A DNA stretch of 7,052 nucleotides from a virus (lineage: Duplodnaviria > Heunggongvirae > Uroviricota > Caudoviricetes): the IMG/VR virus record IMGVR_UViG_2778261417_000006; one strand, written 5' to 3'. Position numbers and translations under genes: made by a program. The notes beneath the pieces are model-generated. The model had not been told where the DNA came from. It saw only the letters and a program-made list of their open reading frames with translations, and did not search any database. Below, one piece after another: positions 1 to 7,052 of the stretch (positions are counted from its first letter, which is position 1; every line of letters begins with the position of its first letter).

Positions 1-130
1 GAATCTGAGGCAGCACCTGGCACGGCTGGGACGGAAGTCGCTGTCGTTCTCAAAATCGGTGGAGCTGCATGACAAAGTCATCGGGCATTATCTGAACATA
101 AAACACTATCAGTAAGTTGGAGTCATTACC
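1..130 (+). mobile_element. IS1 right end, partial and window-truncated (3' end of insB plus terminal inverted repeat)
   Basis: Positions 2-115 translate to [37 protein letters not shown]-stop, the InsB C-terminus as I recall it. The element ends ...CTATCAGTAAGTTGGAGTCATTACC at 130, matching the IS1 terminal repeat. Bases 1-130 are the exact reverse complement of 6923-7052. Confidence 0.93.
2..115 (+). CDS. insB: IS1 transposase InsB, C-terminal fragment (gene continues upstream of the window)
   Basis: Open frame from the window edge to TAA at 113-115; the translation matches the InsB C-terminus from memory. Confidence 0.85.
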
Positions 131-747
131 GGGATCGCGTTCTTAATATCAATGAAACCGCTGATGTATGGTCTTATGCTTACGGTAATAATTTGCTAAC
201 TCTGTCATCAATATATAACCGAAGAATAATGGTTATCTGCCTGGTGTTTGGTTGCCGACAGCAGGAGGCGAGGCTATCCACCTGGGACGAATGGGATTTA
301 AAAAACTGGGTATGGACAGTCCCAAAAGAGCACAGCAAAAACAAGGAGGCTATAGTAAGGCCTGTTCCTGACGGAATAAAACAATGGATCGTTAATCTTT
401 ACGCAGAAACAAAAAATCGCGGTTATGTTGTCGGTTGTGCTTTGCAAAGGGCGACAATAACAGGGGCTGCAAACAGAATATGCAGGCGTCTTGGTCATGA
501 TACTAATGGCTTGTGGTGCATACATGATTTCAGGCGCACATTTTCCACTACGCTTAATGATATGGGGGCGGATCCTTATATTGTCGAACTTCTTTTAGGT
601 CATAAAGTGAAAGGGGTTGCTGGTGTTTACAATAAAAGCAGGCATATAAAGAAAAAACTTGAGGTGCTTAATATGTGGGTTAATTACCTTAATACGATAG
701 CAGGATTTAACAACAACGTTATCGAGCTTAATAAAGAGGTGGTGTGA
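131..747 (+). pseudogene. int: Tyrosine recombinase (P4-type phage integrase), C-terminal catalytic domain only; 5' part interrupted by IS1
   Basis: The frame of the 193..747 ORF stays open back across the IS1 junction at 130/131, with no native start. The translation carries catalytic-domain hallmarks: ARLSTWDEWDL...WTVPKEHSKNK, box II HDFRRTFSTTL, and LLGH...GVAGVY with the presumed catalytic Tyr. About 205 aa are present against roughly 400 expected. Confidence 0.88.
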
Positions 748-748
748 T

Positions 749-1006
749 ATGGCAATTTATTCTCTTGTTGATGAAAACGATTTGCGCACAATGAAGGACA
801 TTGATCGGTTCATTCGTGAAAAAGAGTGCATAGCACTTACCACGCTGGCAAACTCAACACGCTGGAAAATGGAGCAGGCAGGTAAATTCCCGCGACGTAT
901 CAAGATCGGTGAACGTGCTGCAGGGTATCGACTTTCAGAGGTTCAGGCATGGATCCGTGGTGAGTGGCATCCTGGATGGAAACCTGGAAAAACAAAACAG
1001 CAATAA
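749..1006 (+). CDS. alpA: AlpA-family phage transcriptional regulator / excisionase-like DNA-binding protein
   Basis: 85 aa. The ATG lies 1 nt after the int stop and has an AGAGG-type SD. The motif IALTTLANSTRWKMEQAGKFPRRIKIGERAAGYRLSEVQAWI fits the AlpA/Xis helix-turn-helix signature (GxFP...W...ev..W). Confidence 0.8.
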   Translation: MAIYSLVDENDLRTMKDIDRFIREKECIALTTLANSTRWKMEQAGKFPRRIKIGERAAGYRLSEVQAWIRGEWHPGWKPGKTKQQ

Positions 1007-1018
1007 CCAGTAAATAAT

Positions 1019-1042
1019 GCCCCTCATCACGAGGGGTTTTTT
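1019..1042 (+). terminator. Rho-independent terminator after alpA
   Basis: Stem CCCCTC (1020-1025), loop ATCAC, stem GAGGGG (1031-1036), then TTTTTT (1037-1042). Confidence 0.75.
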
Positions 1043-1062
1043 GTCTATAAGGTAAAAACGCG

Positions 1063-1641
1063 ATGAATAAAAATATTGCCGTGACGGGCAAGGGGTACGC
1101 TCGTCCAGTGAAAAAATTCTGCGATATTCGTGATCTCGTCGTTCTGCGCTTTGATAGTGTGAACGTTCGTGTGGTGTATCTGAACGGCGATCCGTGGTTT
1201 GTTGCAAAAGATGTTTGTGCTGCGCTGGAACTAACCAATTCGCGTACGGCGTTGCAGATGCTTGATGATGATGAAAAGGGAGTAAATTTAACTTACACCC
1301 CAGGAGGAAATCAGAATATGAGAATTATCTCTGAGTCAGGTTTCTACAAACTAATAGCCCGCAGCCGCAAAGCAACGACGCCTGGCACATTTGCTCATCG
1401 TTTCAGTAACTGGGTATTCAGAAATGTGATACCAGGTATCAGAAAAACGGGGACTTATGGTATCCCGTGGGGTGCATTACAGGATTTTTCCCGCCGTAAA
1501 GAGCAATATCAAATAAGTGCCAGCGAGAAGGGGAGGGAGCTACAGGCATGTAAGCGCAAAAAGCGTGAGCTGGAGGAAGAAGAAAAAACGCTGATACGTG
1601 AATATCAGCCTGAGTTTTACTTTGGTAACCGCATTCAGTGA
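1063..1641 (+). CDS. Bro-N domain protein (phage antirepressor-like) with charged C-terminal tail
   Basis: 192 aa. Residues about 35-140 (VRVVYLNGDPWFVAKDVCAALELTNSRTALQMLDDDEKGV...TPGGNQNMRIISESGFYKLIARSRKATTPGTFAHRFSNWVFRNVIPGIRKTGTY) match the Bro-N consensus closely. The C-terminus is K/R/E-rich and looks coiled-coil-like. Confidence 0.85.
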   Translation: MNKNIAVTGKGYARPVKKFCDIRDLVVLRFDSVNVRVVYLNGDPWFVAKDVCAALELTNSRTALQMLDDDEKGVNLTYTPGGNQNMRIISESGFYKLIARSRKATTPGTFAHRFSNWVFRNVIPGIRKTGTYGIPWGALQDFSRRKEQYQISASEKGRELQACKRKKRELEEEEKTLIREYQPEFYFGNRIQ

Positions 1642-1650
1642 CAAAACAAA

Positions 1651-1671
1651 GGCGACCGCAAAAGGGTCGCC
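1651..1671 (-). terminator. Hairpin with T-run on the minus strand; candidate terminator for the leftward unit, convergent with the Bro-N gene
   Basis: GGCGACC (1651-1657), loop GCAAAAG, GGTCGCC (1665-1671). The + strand A-rich tract just upstream (1641-1650) reads as a U-run on the minus strand. Confidence 0.5.
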
Positions 1672-1737
1672 AGTGGGAACAAGGGAAAACAAAAGCATCA
1701 CCAACAATGCCACATTTGCGGCTGGTGGGCAATGTGA

Positions 1738-1917
1738 TCAGTCAGATTTGGTTCGTTCCAAGGTTTGCAACGAGAGCTTTTTCCTGTGCTCTTTAAGGAA
1801 TTTCTCAAGAGCAAACGAACAAGGTGCGAATCTTTCTGATTCATGTTCATGCGCTATATTTTTGCGTCGTCTCTTACGAGTTGGTGATGGTGTTTTGGTT
1901 GATTCTGTGTCGCTCAT
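1738..1917 (-). CDS. Hypothetical small basic protein, 59 aa (absent from the supplied ORF track)
   Basis: Hand translation of the minus strand gives MSDTESTKTPSPTRKRRRKNIAHEHESERFAPCSFALEKFLKEHRKKLSLQTLERTKSD-stop. It sits 57 bp downstream of the 101-aa minus-strand gene, has an AGGA about 8 nt upstream, and the minus-oriented hairpin lies about 70 bp beyond its stop. Confidence 0.4.
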   Translation of the reverse strand: MSDTESTKTPSPTRKRRRKNIAHEHESERFAPCSFALEKFLKEHRKKLSLQTLERTKSD

Positions 1918-1974
1918 GGTGCTGTCCTGTAAAGCAATGCGCCTGCGTTCCTCAAACTATGGCGCTGATATTGG

Positions 1975-2280
1975 CTATTCATGCTCTTTGACCTTGCGTC
2001 GCTGGAGTTCTTCACGCGCGACGGTGACGAGTTGCCCGATCTCCTCGGCTGCTTTGATGCCGATTTGTTCGACCTTAGCCAGGGCATCCAGTGACGACAC
2101 AAGGGGATTTTCTCCGCTGCCTTCTGCTTGGCGGCGGGCTATTTCTCCGCGCATGGCGGTTACGATAAATCCGGCATTGCTTTCACCGTCCAGCTTAACG
2201 GATTCCATCCCTTGCATAACATCTAGTGGGACTCTGACAGTTGTCAGTTGTGATTTTGCGTTTTTGTTAGCCGTTGCCAT
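1975..2280 (-). CDS. Hypothetical 101-aa protein; candidate DNA-binding regulator of the element (possibly ribbon-helix-helix-like)
   Basis: AGGAG SD 8 nt upstream of the ATG. It is transcribed divergently from the rightward operon across a palindromic operator region. The N-terminal segment TTVRVPLDVMQGMESVKL is compatible with a beta-strand plus helix RHH fold, but the family is not recognised with certainty. Confidence 0.5.
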   Translation of the reverse strand: MATANKNAKSQLTTVRVPLDVMQGMESVKLDGESNAGFIVTAMRGEIARRQAEGSGENPLVSSLDALAKVEQIGIKAAEEIGQLVTVAREELQRRKVKEHE

Positions 2281-2301
2281 TTCTGAAACTCCTAATCATC
2301 G

Positions 2302-2379
2302 GTGTGTTTCAGTATACACAAAAAAAGAAATACAAAAAGCCTTGACGTGTGTTTCATGCGCTCATAACATGAAACACAC
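2302..2379. promoter_or_regulatory. Divergent promoter/operator region
   Basis: Perfect inverted repeat GTGTGTTTCATG (2347-2358) / CATGAAACACAC (2368-2379) with a 9-bp spacer. A third half-site GTGTGTTTCA sits at 2302-2311. Candidate + promoter: -35 TTGACG (2342-2347), 17 bp, -10 TAACAT (2365-2370). Candidate minus promoter: -10 TATACT (complement of 2311-2316). Confidence 0.6.
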
Positions 2380-2470
2380 CGAAAGGATTGTTGAAATACA
2401 AAGAGCAACGCCCCGCAGTGCTGGGAACACATACGGGGCGTCTAACCAACAACGTAAACTAGGAGCCGTT

Positions 2471-2668
2471 ATGGTTGCTGTAAATCATATACCACACCTT
2501 GTACACACACAAACGGCCTTTGTGTGGCGTTTTCTGGCACTGAGTGCCGGAGAATCTCAAATCATCCACGTAACCGCCTGGACGGAACGCGAAGCGCGTA
2601 GCCGTTGCCCGTCCGGTTGTGTTGCTGTATTCGCTGCAAAAATCCGCCAGGGAGTGAGTCATGCTTAA
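2471..2668 (+). CDS. Hypothetical protein, 65 aa; likely first gene of the rightward operon
   Basis: AGGAG SD 5 nt upstream of ATG 2471. Its stop overlaps the start of the next ORF by 8 nt. It is the 3' end of the long 1598..2668 stop-free frame in the ORF track. Confidence 0.45.
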   Translation: MVAVNHIPHLVHTQTAFVWRFLALSAGESQIIHVTAWTEREARSRCPSGCVAVFAAKIRQGVSHA

Positions 2669-2846
2669 AACCTTCCGTGTATTTGCCCGAGCTGTTAACC
2701 CAATAGGCCACACAATTGGTATCGCTCAGAATGTGAAGGCTGTTAATGTTCAGACGGCTATTGCTGCGGTGAGAAGCGAATCATCAGAATATGGCTTATC
2801 ACAAGTCATTATTTCAGCAGTGTATGAATTAAAAGAGGTGCATTAA
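2661..2846 (+). CDS. Hypothetical protein, 61 aa
   Basis: GGGAG SD; stop TAA overlaps the next ATG as TAATG (translational coupling). Confidence 0.5.
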   Translation: MLKTFRVFARAVNPIGHTIGIAQNVKAVNVQTAIAAVRSESSEYGLSQVIISAVYELKEVH

Positions 2847-3037
2847 TGCAGGAAATTACATTACACGAAGCCGCTGAACGTGCGCACCAGACAGAAATTA
2901 TTTGCCGCCTTCTTGAGGTATACCCGAACAAAATTACAGATGCTGATATATCCGCACTGGCGAGCCTACTGGCGCGTCTTTCGGGAAGTGTCGCTAGTTT
3001 TTTGATTGAGGAAGAAAGTAAGCTGGTGGGGGATTAA
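2846..3037 (+). CDS. Hypothetical acidic protein, 63 aa
   Basis: AGAGG SD; stop TAA is immediately followed by the next ATG (coupled). Confidence 0.5.
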   Translation: MQEITLHEAAERAHQTEIICRLLEVYPNKITDADISALASLLARLSGSVASFLIEEESKLVGD

Positions 3038-3259
3038 ATGAATACAGAACGGGAAGTCTTTTTTAAATTGTTAGCATGTGCAGAAAGTTCATTAACTTTA
3101 AATAATTCAGCAAAAGCAATATTAAATATGTGGCTTGATTGCATAAATGACAATGAAGATGCAAATATTGCTTATGGCCTGTTGTCACTTATTGATGAAT
3201 CAGCAGAAAAACTCAATGACGCAATAAATAGTGCCCTGCTATCAAATAAGTCGAGTTAA
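3038..3259 (+). CDS. Hypothetical acidic protein, 73 aa, encoded in a markedly AT-rich segment (candidate moron)
   Basis: GGGGGA SD 4 nt upstream. By eye this ORF is about one-third GC, well below the flanking genes. Confidence 0.5.
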   Translation: MNTEREVFFKLLACAESSLTLNNSAKAILNMWLDCINDNEDANIAYGLLSLIDESAEKLNDAINSALLSNKSS

Positions 3260-3276
3260 GTCGAGGAATAAATAAT

Positions 3277-3576
3277 ATGGAAATGAAAAATTCTGGCTTT
3301 ATTGCCAGCGGCCCCGCTCGACCTGAATTTATGAACGGCGATATTTACCGCGATAAATACGGCGGCACGGTAACGATTAAAGGCGTGGCAGAACGGCGCA
3401 TCACTTACCGCCGTGAGGGGTATAGCTATGACTGCGTGATGCCTGTTTATCAGTTCCGGCGTGATTTTTCCCTGGTATATGCCGCACCCCGCAGTAAGCC
3501 CATCAGCAGGGAAAAAGCGTGGGGAAATATCCAGAAAATGAAAACCATGATTAACGGATTCAGAGGTAAAAAATGA
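3277..3576 (+). CDS. Hypothetical protein, 99 aa; immediately upstream of and overlapping the primase-like gene
   Basis: GAGGA SD; ATGA start/stop overlap with the 584-aa ORF. Confidence 0.55.
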   Translation: MEMKNSGFIASGPARPEFMNGDIYRDKYGGTVTIKGVAERRITYRREGYSYDCVMPVYQFRRDFSLVYAAPRSKPISREKAWGNIQKMKTMINGFRGKK

Positions 3577-5327
3577 AACTGGCACCGAACGTAAAACAGC
3601 AGTCACGCGGCATAAAACACAAAGGAACAGAAGTAATTATTTTTGCGGGTAGTGATGCCTGGGCACACGCGAAACAATGGCAGGAACATGATGCGCGTAT
3701 GGCCGGAGATAATGAGCCTCCTGTGTGGCTTGGGGAGCAGCAGCTATCCGAACTGGATAATCTGCAAATTGTGCCGGAAGGCCGAAAATCAGCACGCATA
3801 TACAGGGCCGGATATCTTGCGCCTGTAATGATAAAGGCGATTGGTCAGAAGCTGGCGGCAGCAGGCGTACAGGATGCAAATTTTTATCCTGAGGGTATGC
3901 ACGGCCAGGAGGTGCAGAACTGGCGCGAATATCTGGCCCGTGAACGCCAGAATCTTTCTGATGGTCTGGTCATTGAGCTTCCGGTAAAGCAAAAGGCGCA
4001 ACTTTCGCAGATGGCGGACAGTGAGCGCGCGCAGTTGCTTGCCGATCGCTTTGATGGCGTTTGCGTACATCCTGAAAGTGAAATCGTTCACGTATGGCGC
4101 GGCGGGGTATGGTGTCCGGTCAGCACAATGGAACTTAGCCGCGAAATGGTGGCGATCTATTCAGAGCACAGGGCCACTTTCAGCAAGCGCGTAATCAATA
4201 ACGCCGTGGAAGCGTTAAAAGTTATTGCCGAACCAATGGGCGAGCCGTCTGGCGATTTGCTGCCGTTCGCCAATGGTGCGCTTGACCTGAAAACGGGGGA
4301 ATTTTCCCCGCACACGCCGGAGAACTGGATCACCACGCACAACGGCATTGAGTACACGCCACCAGCACCAGGGGAGAACATCCGCGATAACGCGCCAAAC
4401 TTTCATAAATGGCTTGAGCACGCAGCCGGAAAAGACCCGCGCAAGATGATGCGTATATGTGCCGCGCTGTACATGATTATGGCGAACCGGTACGACTGGC
4501 AGATGTTTATTGAGGCCACCGGAGACGGCGGGAGCGGTAAAAGTACATTCACACACATAGCCAGCCTTCTGGCAGGGAAACAGAACACGGTAAGCGCTGA
4601 AATGACATCGCTTGATGATGCTGGTGGACGTGCGCAGGTTGTCGGGAGTCGTCTTATCGTCCTGGCTGACCAGCCGAAATATACAGGCGAAGGAACGGGC
4701 ATCAAGAAAATCACAGGCGGCGACCCCGTGGAAATTAACCCGAAATATGAAAAGCGTTTCACGGCGGTAATCAGGGCGGTGGTGCTGGCGACCAACAACA
4801 ACCCGATGATATTCACCGAACGGGCCGGAGGTGTGGCACGTCGTCGCGTGATTTTCCGTTTCGACAATATCGTCAGTGAGGCCGAAAAAGACAGGGAGCT
4901 ACCGGAAAAGATTGCGGCTGAAATCCCCGTTATTATCCGCCGATTGCTGGCGAACTTTACCGACCCTGAGAAGGCACGGGCTTTACTACTGGAACAGCGT
5001 GACGGTGATGAAGCACTGGCAATAAAGCAACAGACGGATCCGGTTATTGAGTTTTGCCAGTTCCTGAATTTTCTGGAGGAAGCGCGCGGCCTGATGATGG
5101 GTGGCGGTGGTGATTCAGTGAAGTACACGACCAGGAACAGCCTTTACCGCGTCTATCTGGCGTTTATGGCATACGCGGGCAGGAGCAAACCGCTAAACGT
5201 GGCTGAGTTCAGCAAGGCCATGAAGCCAGCGGCGAAAGTTTACGGGCATGAATATATTACGCGAAAAGTTAAGGGAGTAACGCAGACCAACGCAATTACA
5301 ACAGACGATTGCGACGCGTTTTTATAA
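3573..5327 (+). CDS. Replication protein: P4-family primase C-terminal domain / D5-like SF3 helicase
   Basis: 584 aa. Walker A GDGGSGKST is encoded at 4521-4547. The block LIVLADQP...KKITGGDPVEINPKYEKRFTAVIRAVVLATNNNPMIFTERAGGVARRRVIFRF resembles the phage/plasmid primase P4-family C-terminal signature. GAGG SD 6 nt upstream. Confidence 0.82.
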   Translation: MKLAPNVKQQSRGIKHKGTEVIIFAGSDAWAHAKQWQEHDARMAGDNEPPVWLGEQQLSELDNLQIVPEGRKSARIYRAGYLAPVMIKAIGQKLAAAGVQDANFYPEGMHGQEVQNWREYLARERQNLSDGLVIELPVKQKAQLSQMADSERAQLLADRFDGVCVHPESEIVHVWRGGVWCPVSTMELSREMVAIYSEHRATFSKRVINNAVEALKVIAEPMGEPSGDLLPFANGALDLKTGEFSPHTPENWITTHNGIEYTPPAPGENIRDNAPNFHKWLEHAAGKDPRKMMRICAALYMIMANRYDWQMFIEATGDGGSGKSTFTHIASLLAGKQNTVSAEMTSLDDAGGRAQVVGSRLIVLADQPKYTGEGTGIKKITGGDPVEINPKYEKRFTAVIRAVVLATNNNPMIFTERAGGVARRRVIFRFDNIVSEAEKDRELPEKIAAEIPVIIRRLLANFTDPEKARALLLEQRDGDEALAIKQQTDPVIEFCQFLNFLEEARGLMMGGGGDSVKYTTRNSLYRVYLAFMAYAGRSKPLNVAEFSKAMKPAAKVYGHEYITRKVKGVTQTNAITTDDCDAFL

Positions 5328-5340
5328 TTTTTTGTAAAAG

Positions 5341-5564
5341 CCATCTACCCCATCTACCTGAACGAAATAAACGCATATTATTCAACATGATAAGTGGGTA
5401 TAGGGCTAGGTAGAAGGCTAATAAAAGCTCTCTACCTCTTCTACCTGATTTTATCAGTTTCAGGTAGCAGGGTAGACGGCAGGTAGAGGAGTCAAAAAAG
5501 CTATCTACCCGCTGAAAGCGGCGCCATTACTGACATGATGAGCATTCGGGTAGATGGGTAGAGG
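5341..5564. repeat. Iteron cluster; candidate origin of replication
   Basis: Eleven copies of the pentamer CTACC/GGTAG in 224 bp. Tandem CCATCTACC x2 at 5341-5358 is mirrored by GGGTAGATGGGTAGAGG at 5548-5564. Other copies: 5409-5414, 5431-5436, 5440-5445, 5463-5467, 5471-5475, 5482-5486, 5504-5509. An AT-rich core lies at 5359-5394. Confidence 0.65.
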
Positions 5565-5613
5565 GGGGGAGGCACAACTAAAAACTTTTTAAACGAGGGG
5601 GGGGTGAAAATAA

Positions 5614-5928
5614 ATGCGCATACATAAAAATCACTTAACAAACATGCCAGCCGAAAACATGAATCAGGGGCGACAAATGACCAAAATTCGCAGAGACAGA
5701 ACACAGGCAAAATATAAAGCGTTAGACATGACAGAGCTTTCCTTAAAGGTGGCAATCAAAGCGATAGACCACCACACACGGGCAGGATACGCGAAGGAAC
5801 ATCCCGACCTGATAAGCGCATTCATGACCACAGCAGCGGCAAACTTTGCCACGCTGACAGAACGGGAGATTGCCGAAGCGGAACAGGTGACAACCATCAA
5901 TGTTAAAACCGGAGAGCAGACAGCATGA
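5614..5928 (+). CDS. Hypothetical protein (104 aa from ATG 5614; alternative start at 5677 gives 83 aa)
   Basis: Its stop overlaps the SSB start (ATGA). The 5677 start has an AGGGG SD at 6-nt spacing; the 5614 start follows a G8 tract. Confidence 0.55.
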   Translation: MRIHKNHLTNMPAENMNQGRQMTKIRRDRTQAKYKALDMTELSLKVAIKAIDHHTRAGYAKEHPDLISAFMTTAAANFATLTEREIAEAEQVTTINVKTGEQTA

Positions 5929-6347
5929 CAGCACAGATAGCGGCTTACGGGCGGCTGGTGGCTGACCCGCAGTTAAAGACCACCAGCAAAGGGACACAAA
6001 TGGCGATGGCGAGTATGGCGGTTCCCCTGCCGTGCAGCCAGGCAGATGACGGAACGGCGACGATGTGGTTATCCGTCCTGGCGTTTGGCAGACAGGCCGA
6101 CGCACTGGCAAAACACCACAAAGGCGAACTGGTGAGCGTGGCGGGTAACATGCAGGTAAGCCAGTGGACAGGCCAGAACGGCGAAACGCGGCGGGGCTGG
6201 CAGGTTATCGCAGACAGCGTAATCAGTGCGCGAACGGCGCGACCGGGCGGCAAAAAAGGCCAGCAGGGGCAGGCCACTGACGCACTGAACAGGGCAAAAC
6301 AACAGTCGGGGAATGATGATCCGTACGGCGATAATATACCGTTTTAA
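5925..6347 (+). CDS. ssb: Single-stranded DNA-binding protein (SSB family)
   Basis: 140 aa. The OB-fold region aligns with E. coli SSB by eye (GRL.ADP...W..V.AFG..A......KG..V...G......W). The C-terminus ends ...DDPYGDNIPF, resembling the conserved SSB tail DDDIPF. Confidence 0.85.
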   Translation: MTAQIAAYGRLVADPQLKTTSKGTQMAMASMAVPLPCSQADDGTATMWLSVLAFGRQADALAKHHKGELVSVAGNMQVSQWTGQNGETRRGWQVIADSVISARTARPGGKKGQQGQATDALNRAKQQSGNDDPYGDNIPF

Positions 6348-6364
6348 ATTCTGCAAACAAAAAG

Positions 6365-6393
6365 ATGCCGGAAAAAAATAGATTTTCCGGCAT
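6365..6393. terminator. Perfect 11-bp-arm hairpin downstream of ssb
   Basis: ATGCCGGAAAA (6365-6375), 7-nt loop, TTTTCCGGCAT (6383-6393). The U-run is on the minus-strand side; termination on the + strand is plausible but weaker. Confidence 0.5.
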
Positions 6394-6564
6394 GCTACAT
6401 AAATCCCGACCAAAGGAAGTAAATACATTAACACGAATTATCAGCACTGAAGTTGTTACGGCATATTTTATACAACATTGCACTTGGTTGCATGTGTTCG
6501 CATAGCAGACATCGGTAATAGAATATATTCACAATTATTTGTAATGAATGTAAAGAGGATGAGT

Positions 6565-6927
6565 ATGGTTGATTTATATTCGCCTACACAGCTTGTGCAG
6601 GTGGCTAATGCTGAAGATGTGCAAAAAAAATTAAATGCGTTGTTTACCAGTTTGTTTTTCACTCGCTCGGTAATGTTTGAATCGAGAGACATTATTCTTG
6701 ATACGATCGACGATCCAAATATCCCGATCGCGGCGTTTTGCTCTCCTATGGTGGGCAGTAAAGTTTCACGAGATGAGGGATACGAATCAAAAACAATTCG
6801 TCCAGGTTATATGAAGCCGAAAAGCAGCATTGATCCAAATAAGTTAGCTGTGCGCCCTGCTGGTGTGTCACCTGAGCAATACAATGCTTTTGGGGCGCGT
6901 AATATTAAAGTTAAACAGGCGAGGTAA
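6565..6927 (+). pseudogene. Lambda gpE-like major capsid protein, N-terminal about 120 codons only; truncated by IS1
   Basis: The translation from 6565 (MVDLYSPTQLVQVANAEDVQKKLNALFTSLFFTRS...FCSPMVGSKVSRDEGYESKTIRPGYMKPK...) resembles the lambda E N-terminus as I recall it (LFLRLFFRES...YVSPIVSGEVIRSRGG...TPGYVKPK). AAGAGG SD 6 nt upstream. The stop TAA (6925-6927) is supplied by the IS1 terminal sequence GGTAATGA. An alternative start at 6559 (MSMVDLY...) has no SD spacing. Confidence 0.65.
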
Positions 6928-7052
6928 TGACTCCAACTTACTGATAGTGTTTTATGTTCAGATAATGCCCGATGACTTTGTCATGCAGCTCCACCGATTT
7001 TGAGAACGACAGCGACTTCCGTCCCAGCCGTGCCAGGTGCTGCCTCAGATTC
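6923..7052 (-). mobile_element. IS1 right end, partial and window-truncated, inverted relative to the copy at 1-130
   Basis: Exact reverse complement of 1-130; begins GGTAATGACTCCAACTTACTGATAG. Confidence 0.93.
6938..7051 (-). CDS. insB: IS1 transposase InsB, C-terminal fragment (gene continues beyond the window)
   Basis: Mirror image of 2-115; the stop is the complement of 6938-6940. Confidence 0.85.

What the first reader, a model, noticed from the sequence alone, without database searches (positions are those of the whole stretch)
131..747. Integrase reading frame runs open into the IS1 junction: 5' half of int missing
The catalytic domain is complete but there is no native start, and the frame is open right up to the IS1 terminal repeat. 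The element probably cannot excise with its own integrase, which would make it an immobilised island unless Int is supplied in trans or the 5' part lies beyond the IS1. The att site and any flanking tRNA are therefore not in this window.
Basis: partly seen in the sequence, partly recalled or inferred. Interest (0 to 1): 0.45.

Follow-up and report, generated by a model that had tools for sequence, protein, structure and literature searches.

The report
IS1-split integrase of a phage satellite
An ordinary IS1 insertion has cut the integrase gene of an already described phage satellite in two; the missing front half lies on another contig of the same E. coli draft genome, so this is routine decay, not a new kind of gene.

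Summary
Window 131-747 holds only the 3' half of a tyrosine-integrase gene (part of codon 209 to the stop). It has no native start, and its frame stays open into the IS1 end at 1-130. The window is a whole 7,052-bp draft contig (E. coli GCA_002521985.1, NOSH01000066.1). Both ends are the same 130 nt of IS1, in inverted orientation.

The missing 5' half is in the same genome. The 1,140-bp contig NOSH01000102.1 carries portal-gene fragment, attL, int nt 1-634 and the IS1 left end. A 9-bp duplication, GGGATCGCG, flanks the IS1. Removing IS1 and one duplicate rebuilds a 1,242-nt int identical to the intact 413-aa gene of complete genomes. This is a simple IS1 insertion in the linker between the core-binding and catalytic domains, not a deletion and not a natural short variant.

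The element is a published helper-embedded PICI (site group B:Phage_portal_2:241, PMC10111431). It sits inside the portal gene of a lambdoid prophage, not beside a tRNA. A second IS1 truncates its capsid gene at 6922/6923.

Inferred, not shown: the satellite cannot excise on its own, so the helper's portal gene stays split. The finding is ordinary and of low interest.

The parts
1..130 (+). 3' end of IS1 (IS1A-like): InsB C-terminal codons 2-112, stop TAA 113-115, terminal inverted repeat about 108-130. It lies at the contig edge as a collapsed repeat.
   Evidence: PF03400, E 7e-17; 100% to annotated IS1 copies; perfect 130-nt terminal inverted repeat of the window.
131..139 (+). One copy of the 9-bp IS1 target-site duplication, GGGATCGCG. 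The other copy is at L006 1055-1063, directly before the IS1 left end.
131..747 (+). 3' remnant of the satellite integrase gene: nt 626-1242 of 1242, that is the last 2 nt of codon 209 through the stop. It holds the complete catalytic domain. It lacks the start codon, the arm-binding domain and the core-binding domain.
193..747 (+). The 184-aa ORF (TTG start) that gene callers report for the remnant. It is an annotation artefact, not a natural short integrase.
   Evidence: The same 184-aa call arises in L004 behind a different (IS3-family) insertion. No promoter-like site above chance lies upstream.
749..1006 (+). alpA (AlpA-family regulator/excisionase), followed by a terminator-like hairpin at 1019-1037.
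1063..1641 (+). Bro-N domain protein (the 'Bro zone' of the satellite).
1975..2280 (-). YlcI/YnfO-family protein, the only annotated minus-strand gene in the window.
   Evidence: RefSeq annotation of the identical gene; no Pfam hit.
2471..2668 (+). Icd-like cell-division-inhibitor gene, followed by three small hypothetical genes (2661-3259).
3277..5327 (+). Replication zone: DUF4222 protein (3277-3576) and primase/helicase-like protein with D5_N, DUF5906 and Pox_D5 domains (3573-5327).
5335..5560 (.). Cluster of short CTACC/GGTAG-type repeats just downstream of the primase gene. Probable replication origin (inferred).
   Evidence: families D2, D10. PMC10111431 states that an ori lies downstream of pri in such elements.
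5925..6347 (+). Single-stranded-DNA-binding protein, preceded by a small hypothetical gene (5677-5928).
6565..6922 (+). 5' remnant of the satellite's lambda-E-type major capsid gene: codons 1-119 plus 1 nt, of 346. The ORF ends at a TAA supplied by IS1 (6925-6927).
6923..7052 (-). Second IS1 copy, showing the same (InsB/IRR) end, inverted relative to the first. It lies at the contig edge.

Best explanation
Window 131-747 is the downstream half of the integrase gene of a helper-embedded PICI, a phage satellite that lives inside the portal gene of a lambdoid prophage. The gene was split by a simple IS1 transposition.

Shown: IS1 entered after nt 634 of int, in the same orientation as int, and duplicated 9 bp (GGGATCGCG). 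The upstream fragment sits on another small contig of the same draft genome, NOSH01000102.1. It contains portal 5' fragment, attL, the Int arm-site repeats, int nt 1-634 and the IS1 left end. Its predicted product is Int residues 1-211 plus Gly then stop (212 aa), which holds only the arm-binding and core-binding domains. The downstream fragment, in this window, holds only the catalytic domain and has no start codon. No promoter-like site above chance lies upstream of it. A second IS1, inverted, cuts the satellite's capsid gene. Because short reads collapse IS1, the 6.8 kb between the two copies assembled as a separate contig with 130 nt of IS1 at each end.

Inferred: neither int fragment can carry out site-specific recombination, so the satellite cannot excise unless a matching Int is supplied in trans. 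In this kind of satellite, excision is what restores the helper's portal gene. The helper prophage is therefore probably locked in a portal-less state as well.
For: - The window is the complete contig NOSH01000066.1 of GCA_002521985.1. Its ends are a perfect 130-nt inverted repeat that is IS1.
- Window 131-6922 is 100% identical to an uninterrupted element in CP138217, and 99.8-100% identical in the 30 listed records. In 53 complete genomes a match covers at least 80% of it.
- The intact int is 1,242 nt / 413 aa: Arm-DNA-bind_3 at 7-94, Phage_int_M at 114-196, Phage_integrase at 234-378. The break falls in codon 209, in the linker.
- I predicted the upstream product from a 9-bp duplication (Int 1-211 + G). 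It exists as WP_244588003.1 and is encoded on NOSH01000102.1 of the same assembly. The junction reads ...GGTATAAGGGATCGCG|GGTAATGGTGCCAACTTACTGAT.
- L006 430-1063 joined to window 140-747 is identical to the intact gene.
- Element identity: CP011416 and CP015912 match the window at 99.9%. Both are listed as B_Phage_portal_2_241 HE-PICIs with identity block aaggcgat in Supplementary File 1 of PMC10111431.
- attL and attR share AAGGCGAT, and joining the two portal fragments there gives an uninterrupted 533-aa lambda-type portal protein.
- The doubled TGTATTGC motif that the paper reports as unique to HE-PICIs is present at both ends.
Against:
- An Int of the same subclade elsewhere in the genome could act in trans; this was not testable.
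- I did not find the partner contig of the right-hand (capsid) junction. A simple insertion there, and the presence of attR in this genome, are assumed.
- The two inverted IS1 copies could have inverted the 6.8-kb segment. Short-read contigs cannot tell. This would not change the state of int.
Confidence: 0.93

Rival explanations
1. IS1-mediated adjacent deletion or rearrangement removed the 5' half of int, and with it attL, from the genome.
For: From the window alone this cannot be excluded. IS1 flanks both sides, and IS1 is known to cause adjacent deletions (established knowledge).
Against: The 5' half, with attL and the portal 5' fragment, is on contig NOSH01000102.1 of the same assembly. 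It ends in the IS1 left end with a 9-bp duplication that matches window 131-139, and the two halves rebuild the intact gene exactly.
Confidence: 0.02
2. A natural short integrase of 184 or 204 aa, consisting of the catalytic domain only, is encoded here. The IS1 merely lies upstream.
For: A 184-aa 'site-specific integrase' with exactly this sequence is in the protein databases (WP_258782924.1).
Against: That record comes from contigs in which int is cut by an IS: IS1 here, and an IS3-family element 50 bp further downstream in L004. In each of the 53 complete genomes with at least 80% of the element the matched stretch is continuous across the breakpoint, and the two I opened (L001, L002) encode the full 413-aa protein. 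The remnant has no native start, and no promoter-like site above chance lies upstream.
Confidence: 0.01
3. Assembly artefact: the IS1-int junction is a chimeric join made by the assembler at a repeat, and int is intact in the real genome.
For: The window is a short-read contig that ends in a collapsed repeat on both sides.
Against: Both reciprocal junctions exist, with a duplication of the length typical for IS1 (9 bp). The same left junction occurs in an independent Logan assembly, SRR32285519. A 255-kb contig of GCA_026412265.1 stops exactly at the duplicated 9 bp. The truncated capsid junction is carried by 4 contigs.
Confidence: 0.02
4. The 6.8-kb segment between the two inverted IS1 copies behaves as a composite IS1 transposon, or has been inverted by IS1-IS1 recombination. 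Its present neighbours would then not be the two gene halves expected from simple insertions.
For: Two IS1 copies in inverted orientation bracket the segment. The right-hand partner junction was not found.
Against: None of 5,426 complete E. coli genomes carries either junction, so there is no sign that the segment has moved. The left IS1 has a clean 9-bp duplication with the int 5' half, which points to a simple insertion. An inversion would leave both inner junctions, and the disrupted state of int, unchanged.
Confidence: 0.1

Closest known systems
HE-PICI site group B:Phage_portal_2:241 (for example Eco2613.11.B_Phage_portal_2_241, CP011416.1/3698288-3709185), Tommasini, Mageeney & Williams 2023, PMC10111431
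   Same: It is the same element. The window interior is 99.9% identical to CP011416 and CP015912 over 6,792 nt. It has the same attL sequence and AAGGCGAT identity block, the same doubled TGTATTGC motif, the same order (int-alpA / Bro / replication / late), and is about 10.9 kb.
   Different: In this copy int is split by IS1 after nt 634 and the capsid gene is split by a second IS1. Neither junction is present in any of 5,426 complete E. coli genomes. The source assembly was not found in the paper's supplementary files; the copy of the element table held here is truncated.
HE-PICI 11capE of E. coli NRG857c (site E:Phage_cap_E:80), the experimentally induced prototype (PMC10111431)
   Same: Same satellite type and integrase clade according to the paper. 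It is embedded in, and co-oriented with, a helper late gene that cannot be expressed until the satellite excises.
   Different: Its target gene is capsid E rather than portal B. Excision was shown experimentally for 11capE, not for this element.
Gram-negative PICI EcCICFT073 (Fillol-Salom et al. 2019, PMC6739421)
   Same: Shares int-alpA, a primase-type replication module, late-zone genes and a cos-type lambdoid helper.
   Different: EcCICFT073 sits in the chromosome, apart from its helper. I did not compare the Nu1-like protein of this element with Rpp.
IS1 insertional gene disruption with a 9-bp target duplication (textbook IS1 behaviour; established knowledge)
   Same: Terminal repeats, InsB and a 9-bp direct duplication flanking the insertion.
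   Different: Nothing unusual, except that the IS1 left end in L006 (GGTAATGGTGCC...) differs from the left end at the same junction in L005 (GGTGATGCTGCC...).

Membership tests
Helper-embedded PICI (HE-PICI), group B:Phage_portal_2:241 | [quoted passage not shown] | tested here: met
   Intact copies L001 and L002 split a portal gene that lies between terminase/W and the C, D and E cognates. In the source genome, L006 shows portal 5' fragment, attL and int on one strand. Joining the fragments gives a 533-aa Phage_portal_2 protein. attR in the source genome was not seen.
Helper-embedded PICI (HE-PICI), group B:Phage_portal_2:241 | att identity block aaggcgat and the attL sequence of the group | tested here: met
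   The longest attL/attR identity in L001 is AAGGCGAT (11168 / 22068). The attL string matches 32 attL entries in the paper's Supplementary File 3.
Helper-embedded PICI (HE-PICI), group B:Phage_portal_2:241 | Doubled motif tgTGTATTGCantgTGTATTGCa in two copies flanking the attP centre (about 81 bp upstream, about 132 bp downstream) | tested here: met
   TGTATTGC occurs at L001 21974 and 21986 (right end, about 80-100 bp before the core). It also occurs at 11306 and 11318 (left end; the motif starts about 133 bp after the core), with a further single copy at 11348. It is also present in L006 at 358-381. None of these lies in the window.
Helper-embedded PICI (HE-PICI), group B:Phage_portal_2:241 | Four ordered zones: Integration (int, alpA), Bro, Replication (primase, DUF5906, SSB), Late (phage late genes) | tested here: met
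   Pfam hits in this order in the window. In the intact copy the late zone is Phage_cap_E, HDPD, AlpA-like and Nu1-like.
Helper-embedded PICI (HE-PICI), group B:Phage_portal_2:241 | Integrase belongs to the HE-PICI clade or subclade | tested here: met
   Tested by identity rather than by phylogeny. The rebuilt int is identical to that of L001. The window is 99.9% identical to CP011416 and CP015912, which the paper lists in this group.
Helper-embedded PICI (HE-PICI), group B:Phage_portal_2:241 | Helper-dependent induction, excision and packaging | not testable with these tools
   Needs experiments. It was shown only for 11capE in PMC10111431.
Tyrosine recombinase with N-terminal arm-binding domain (P4 / CP4-57-type integrase architecture) | Catalytic domain with R...K...H-x-x-R...H...Y | tested here: met
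   PF00589, E 4.5e-15. HDFRR, LLGH and GVY align with XerC/XerD Box II residues and the tyrosine, though weakly (E 0.05-0.7). R251 and K280 were read from the sequence by motif only.
Tyrosine recombinase with N-terminal arm-binding domain (P4 / CP4-57-type integrase architecture) | Arm-DNA-binding domain and core-binding domain on the same polypeptide as the catalytic domain | tested here: not met
   In this genome they are encoded upstream of the IS1, on L006: a 212-aa product with PF13356 and PF22022. The window encodes the catalytic domain alone. The intact relative meets this feature.
IS1 family insertion sequence | IS1 terminal repeat, InsB transposase and a 9-bp target-site duplication | tested here: met
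   identity and PF03400; GGGATCGCG on both sides. The full length of this IS1 copy is not assembled.
P4-like satellite | P4-specific genes (sid, psu, delta, cnr/eps; CI RNA) and a P2-type helper | tested here: inconclusive
   No Rfam family, including the C4/isrK type, reached threshold in the window. The Pfam hits are int, AlpA, Bro-N, D5_N-type primase and SSB, with lambda-type late genes, and the helper is lambdoid. I made no dedicated search for sid, psu or delta.

The most novel reading that the evidence does not exclude
The int gene of this satellite type may be a recurrent target of inactivation, and hitting it 'grounds' two mobile elements at once: the satellite cannot excise, so the helper prophage's portal gene can never be restored. 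Three observations would fit independent IS1 hits at one hot spot, or selection for locked composites. First, the same IS1 site and 9-bp duplication appear next to portal sequences that differ by 2-3 SNPs in 215 nt. Second, the IS1 left ends at that site differ. Third, other strains carry an IS3-family insertion 50 bp away and int deletion fusions. The alternative is a single neutral event followed by recombination.
Probability: 0.1. Interest if true: 0.4.

Novelty: already known. Interest (0 to 1): 0.13.

Why it matters
It matters mainly for annotation. The 184-aa 'site-specific integrase' and the 212-aa 'tyrosine-type recombinase' records are two halves of one IS1-split gene, and the 120-aa capsid ORF is a second IS1 truncation. 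The contig is a fragment of a known helper-embedded satellite, not a separate island bounded by IS1.

The biological point is modest. In a helper-embedded satellite, loss of int should also leave the helper's portal gene permanently split, so one IS hit probably disables two mobile elements. That is inferred from published work on the prototype, not shown here.

Tried and rejected
- Both IS1 junctions were searched against 5,426 complete E. coli genomes. No genome has either one, so complete genomes could not show the far side of the IS1.
- My first predicted upstream product carried a reading-frame slip (tail GDAANLLI, which corresponds to an 8-bp duplication). It was used as the homologue-search query and returned only other truncated variants. 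The corrected 9-bp prediction (Int 1-211 + G) was then found by exact look-up.
- The 8-, 10- and 11-bp predictions are not in the collection. The 211-aa form is a contig-end partial.
- Partner of the right junction: five predicted capsid C-terminal products were looked up. Only a generic 143-aa fragment exists, and its contigs belong to other strains that have frameshifted capsid genes.
- P0057 looked promising because its accession is close to that of the 212-aa protein. It proved to be a different IS1 insertion, about 84 nt further upstream in the capsid gene of a related element that lies beside clpS.
- PDB sequence search with the catalytic half gave only weak XerC/XerD matches.
- Rfam found nothing in the window.
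- The source assembly was not found in the HE-PICI paper's supplementary files; the copy of the element table held here is truncated.
- Not attempted: structure prediction, fold search and the large representative-protein search. The gene is 100% identical to an annotated, published one, so they were not needed.

Full report
**1. The observation**

The first 130 bases of the window are the InsB-proximal end of IS1.
- They are 100% identical to annotated IS1/IS1A copies in thousands of E. coli records.
- Window 2-112 translates to the InsB C-terminus (PF03400, E 7e-17).
- The terminal repeat ends ...GGAGTCATTACC at base 130.

From base 131 the sequence continues as the interior of an integrase gene.
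- The reading frame is open from 73 to the TGA at 745-747. The nearest upstream in-frame stop is at 70-72, inside IS1.
- No ATG/GTG/TTG occurs in frame before the TTG at 193.
- InsB stops at 113-115 in a different frame, so no fusion protein is made.
- The remnant carries the complete Pfam Phage_integrase match.
- HDFRR, LLGH and GVY align, weakly (E 0.05-0.7), with the Box II residues and the tyrosine of XerC/XerD structures.

**2. What the window is**

The window is the entire record NOSH01000066.1 (7,052 bp) of E. coli assembly GCA_002521985.1. Its two ends are a perfect 130-nt inverted repeat. The same IS1 end faces inward on both sides. This is what a short-read assembler produces when a unique segment lies between two copies of a collapsed repeat. 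The second IS1 cuts a lambda-E-type capsid gene after codon 119, at window 6922/6923.

**3. The intact gene and the breakpoint**

- Window 131-6922 is 100% identical to an uninterrupted stretch of CP138217 (L001), and 99.8-100% identical in the 30 listed records. In 53 complete genomes a match covers at least 80% of it.
- There int is 1,242 nt / 413 aa: Arm-DNA-bind_3 at 7-94, Phage_int_M at 114-196 and Phage_integrase at 234-378.
- Window 131 corresponds to nt 626 of the gene. The cut lies in codon 209, in the linker between the core-binding and catalytic domains. "5' half missing" is accurate almost to the base.

**4. Where the 5' half is**

No complete E. coli genome carries either IS1 junction. 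I therefore predicted the product of the upstream fragment for different duplication lengths and looked each up by exact sequence.
- The prediction for a 9-bp duplication is Int 1-211 plus Gly, with the stop supplied by GG|TGA of the IS1 left end. It exists as WP_244588003.1.
- It is encoded on NOSH01000102.1, a 1,140-bp contig of the same assembly.
- That contig reads: portal-gene fragment, attL, TGTATTGC repeats, int nt 1-634, then GGTAATGGTGCCAACTTACTGAT..., which is the IS1 left end.
- GGGATCGCG lies on both sides of the IS1 (L006 1055-1063 and window 131-139).
- Joining L006 430-1063 to window 140-747 gives a 1,242-nt gene identical to the intact one.

This is a simple IS1 insertion with the 9-bp duplication typical of IS1. 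It is not a deletion, not a short variant and not an assembly chimera. The same left junction occurs in an independent Logan assembly (L005). A 255-kb contig of GCA_026412265.1 stops exactly at the duplicated 9 bp.

**5. What the element is**

In intact copies the roughly 10.9-kb element interrupts the portal gene of a lambdoid prophage. The gene order is terminase, W, portal 5' | int ... | portal 3', then the C, D, E ... tail genes.
- attL and attR share AAGGCGAT. Joining the portal fragments there restores an uninterrupted 533-aa Phage_portal_2 protein.
- The gene order of the element is int, alpA, Bro-N protein, small genes, DUF4222 protein, D5_N/DUF5906 primase, SSB, capsid E, decoration D, an AlpA-like protein, a Nu1-like protein.

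This is the helper-embedded PICI class described by Tommasini, Mageeney and Williams (PMC10111431).
- Their Supplementary File 1 lists CP011416.1/3698288-3709185 and CP015912.1/4478746-4489644 as B_Phage_portal_2_241 HE-PICIs with identity block aaggcgat. Those are my hits H23 and H6, at 99.9% identity.
- The doubled motif tgTGTATTGCantgTGTATTGCa, which they report as unique to HE-PICIs, is present at both ends.

"P4-type" holds only in the broad sense of an integrase with this arm-binding domain.

**6. Mechanism and consequences**

Shown:
- The gene is split into a 212-aa arm-binding plus core-binding fragment and a start-less catalytic fragment.
- No promoter-like site above chance precedes the catalytic fragment.

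Inferred from the established requirement that the DNA-binding and catalytic domains of a tyrosine integrase act within one protein:
- Neither fragment can recombine att sites.
- The satellite cannot excise unless a matching Int acts in trans.

Inferred from the published prototype, in which the interrupted helper gene cannot be expressed until the satellite excises:
- The helper's portal gene probably stays split.
- The helper prophage is then also defective.

The second IS1, in the capsid gene, may matter less. The paper states that PICI capsid genes are not needed for transfer, and many relatives carry split capsid genes.

**7. Rivals**

- Deletion of the 5' half, a natural short integrase and an assembly chimera are each contradicted by the reciprocal junction and by the intact relatives.
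- Inversion or composite-transposon behaviour of the IS1-bracketed segment cannot be excluded from short-read contigs. There is no sign that the segment has moved, and neither would change the state of int.

**8. Unresolved**

- The partner contig of the capsid junction was not found.
- The three assemblies with the int::IS1 junction have identical satellite sequence (0 mismatches in 845 nt), but their adjoining portal sequences differ by 2-3 SNPs in 215 nt.
- Their IS1 left ends differ where they can be read, in L005 and L006. This could mean independent hits at one site, or one event followed by recombination.

**9. Verdict**

The feature is an ordinary IS1 disruption of a gene in an already described satellite, seen through a fragmented draft assembly. 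Interest is low and novelty is "already known".

Noticed in passing
window 6565-7052: A second IS1 copy, inverted, truncates the satellite's lambda-E-type capsid gene after codon 119. The resulting 120-aa ORF ends at a TAA supplied by IS1. The truncated protein is carried by 4 contigs in the collection, all 5-10 kb long.
   Followed up: partly
window 1-130 and 6923-7052: The window is a complete draft contig (NOSH01000066.1). Its ends are a perfect 130-nt inverted repeat of IS1, the signature of a collapsed repeat. The partner contig L006 stops 77 nt into IS1.
   Followed up: yes
L004 1-140 (GCA_024755885.1, JANTNE010000083.1): In another strain the same int gene is cut about 50 bp further downstream (window position about 181) by the end of an IS3-family element. 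Gene callers then report the same 184-aa ORF, which is how that 'protein' entered RefSeq (WP_258782924.1).
   Followed up: partly
proteins P0002, P0003, P0004: Further independent wrecks of this int gene: a deletion fusing int codon 244 to the C-terminal part of the Bro gene, a fusion to a collagen-like tail-fibre protein, and a truncation that reads into another IS end.
   Followed up: no
L005 8411-8450, L006 1048-1140, L007 10619-10634: The same IS1 site and 9-bp duplication occur in three assemblies. The first 12 nt of IS1 differ between L005 and L006 (GGTGATGCTGCC against GGTAATGGTGCC). The adjoining helper portal sequences differ by 2-3 SNPs in 215 nt, while the satellite part is identical (0 of 845).
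   Followed up: partly
window 5335-5560: A dense cluster of short CTACC/GGTAG-type repeats in both orientations lies just downstream of the primase gene. It is probably the satellite's replication origin.
   Followed up: no
L010-L019: Many related satellites have the capsid gene split into two ORFs. The same 143-aa C-terminal fragment is indexed in 110 blocks of the collection. Their right ends carry variable cargo such as Abi_C, or HEPN_RiboL-PSP with GmrSD_N, which look like anti-phage defence genes.
   Followed up: no
L009 1-3700 (GCA_013404195.1): A related element with a different IS1 insertion in its capsid gene (about 84 nt upstream of the site in the window) lies next to clpS-clpA rather than in a portal gene. 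It may be an off-target or a different site group.
   Followed up: no
L001 21507-21668: Three tandem 54-nt repeats (61-80% identity to the first copy) lie in the non-coding right arm of the intact satellite, between the last ORF and attR. This is outside the window, and their function is unknown.
   Followed up: no
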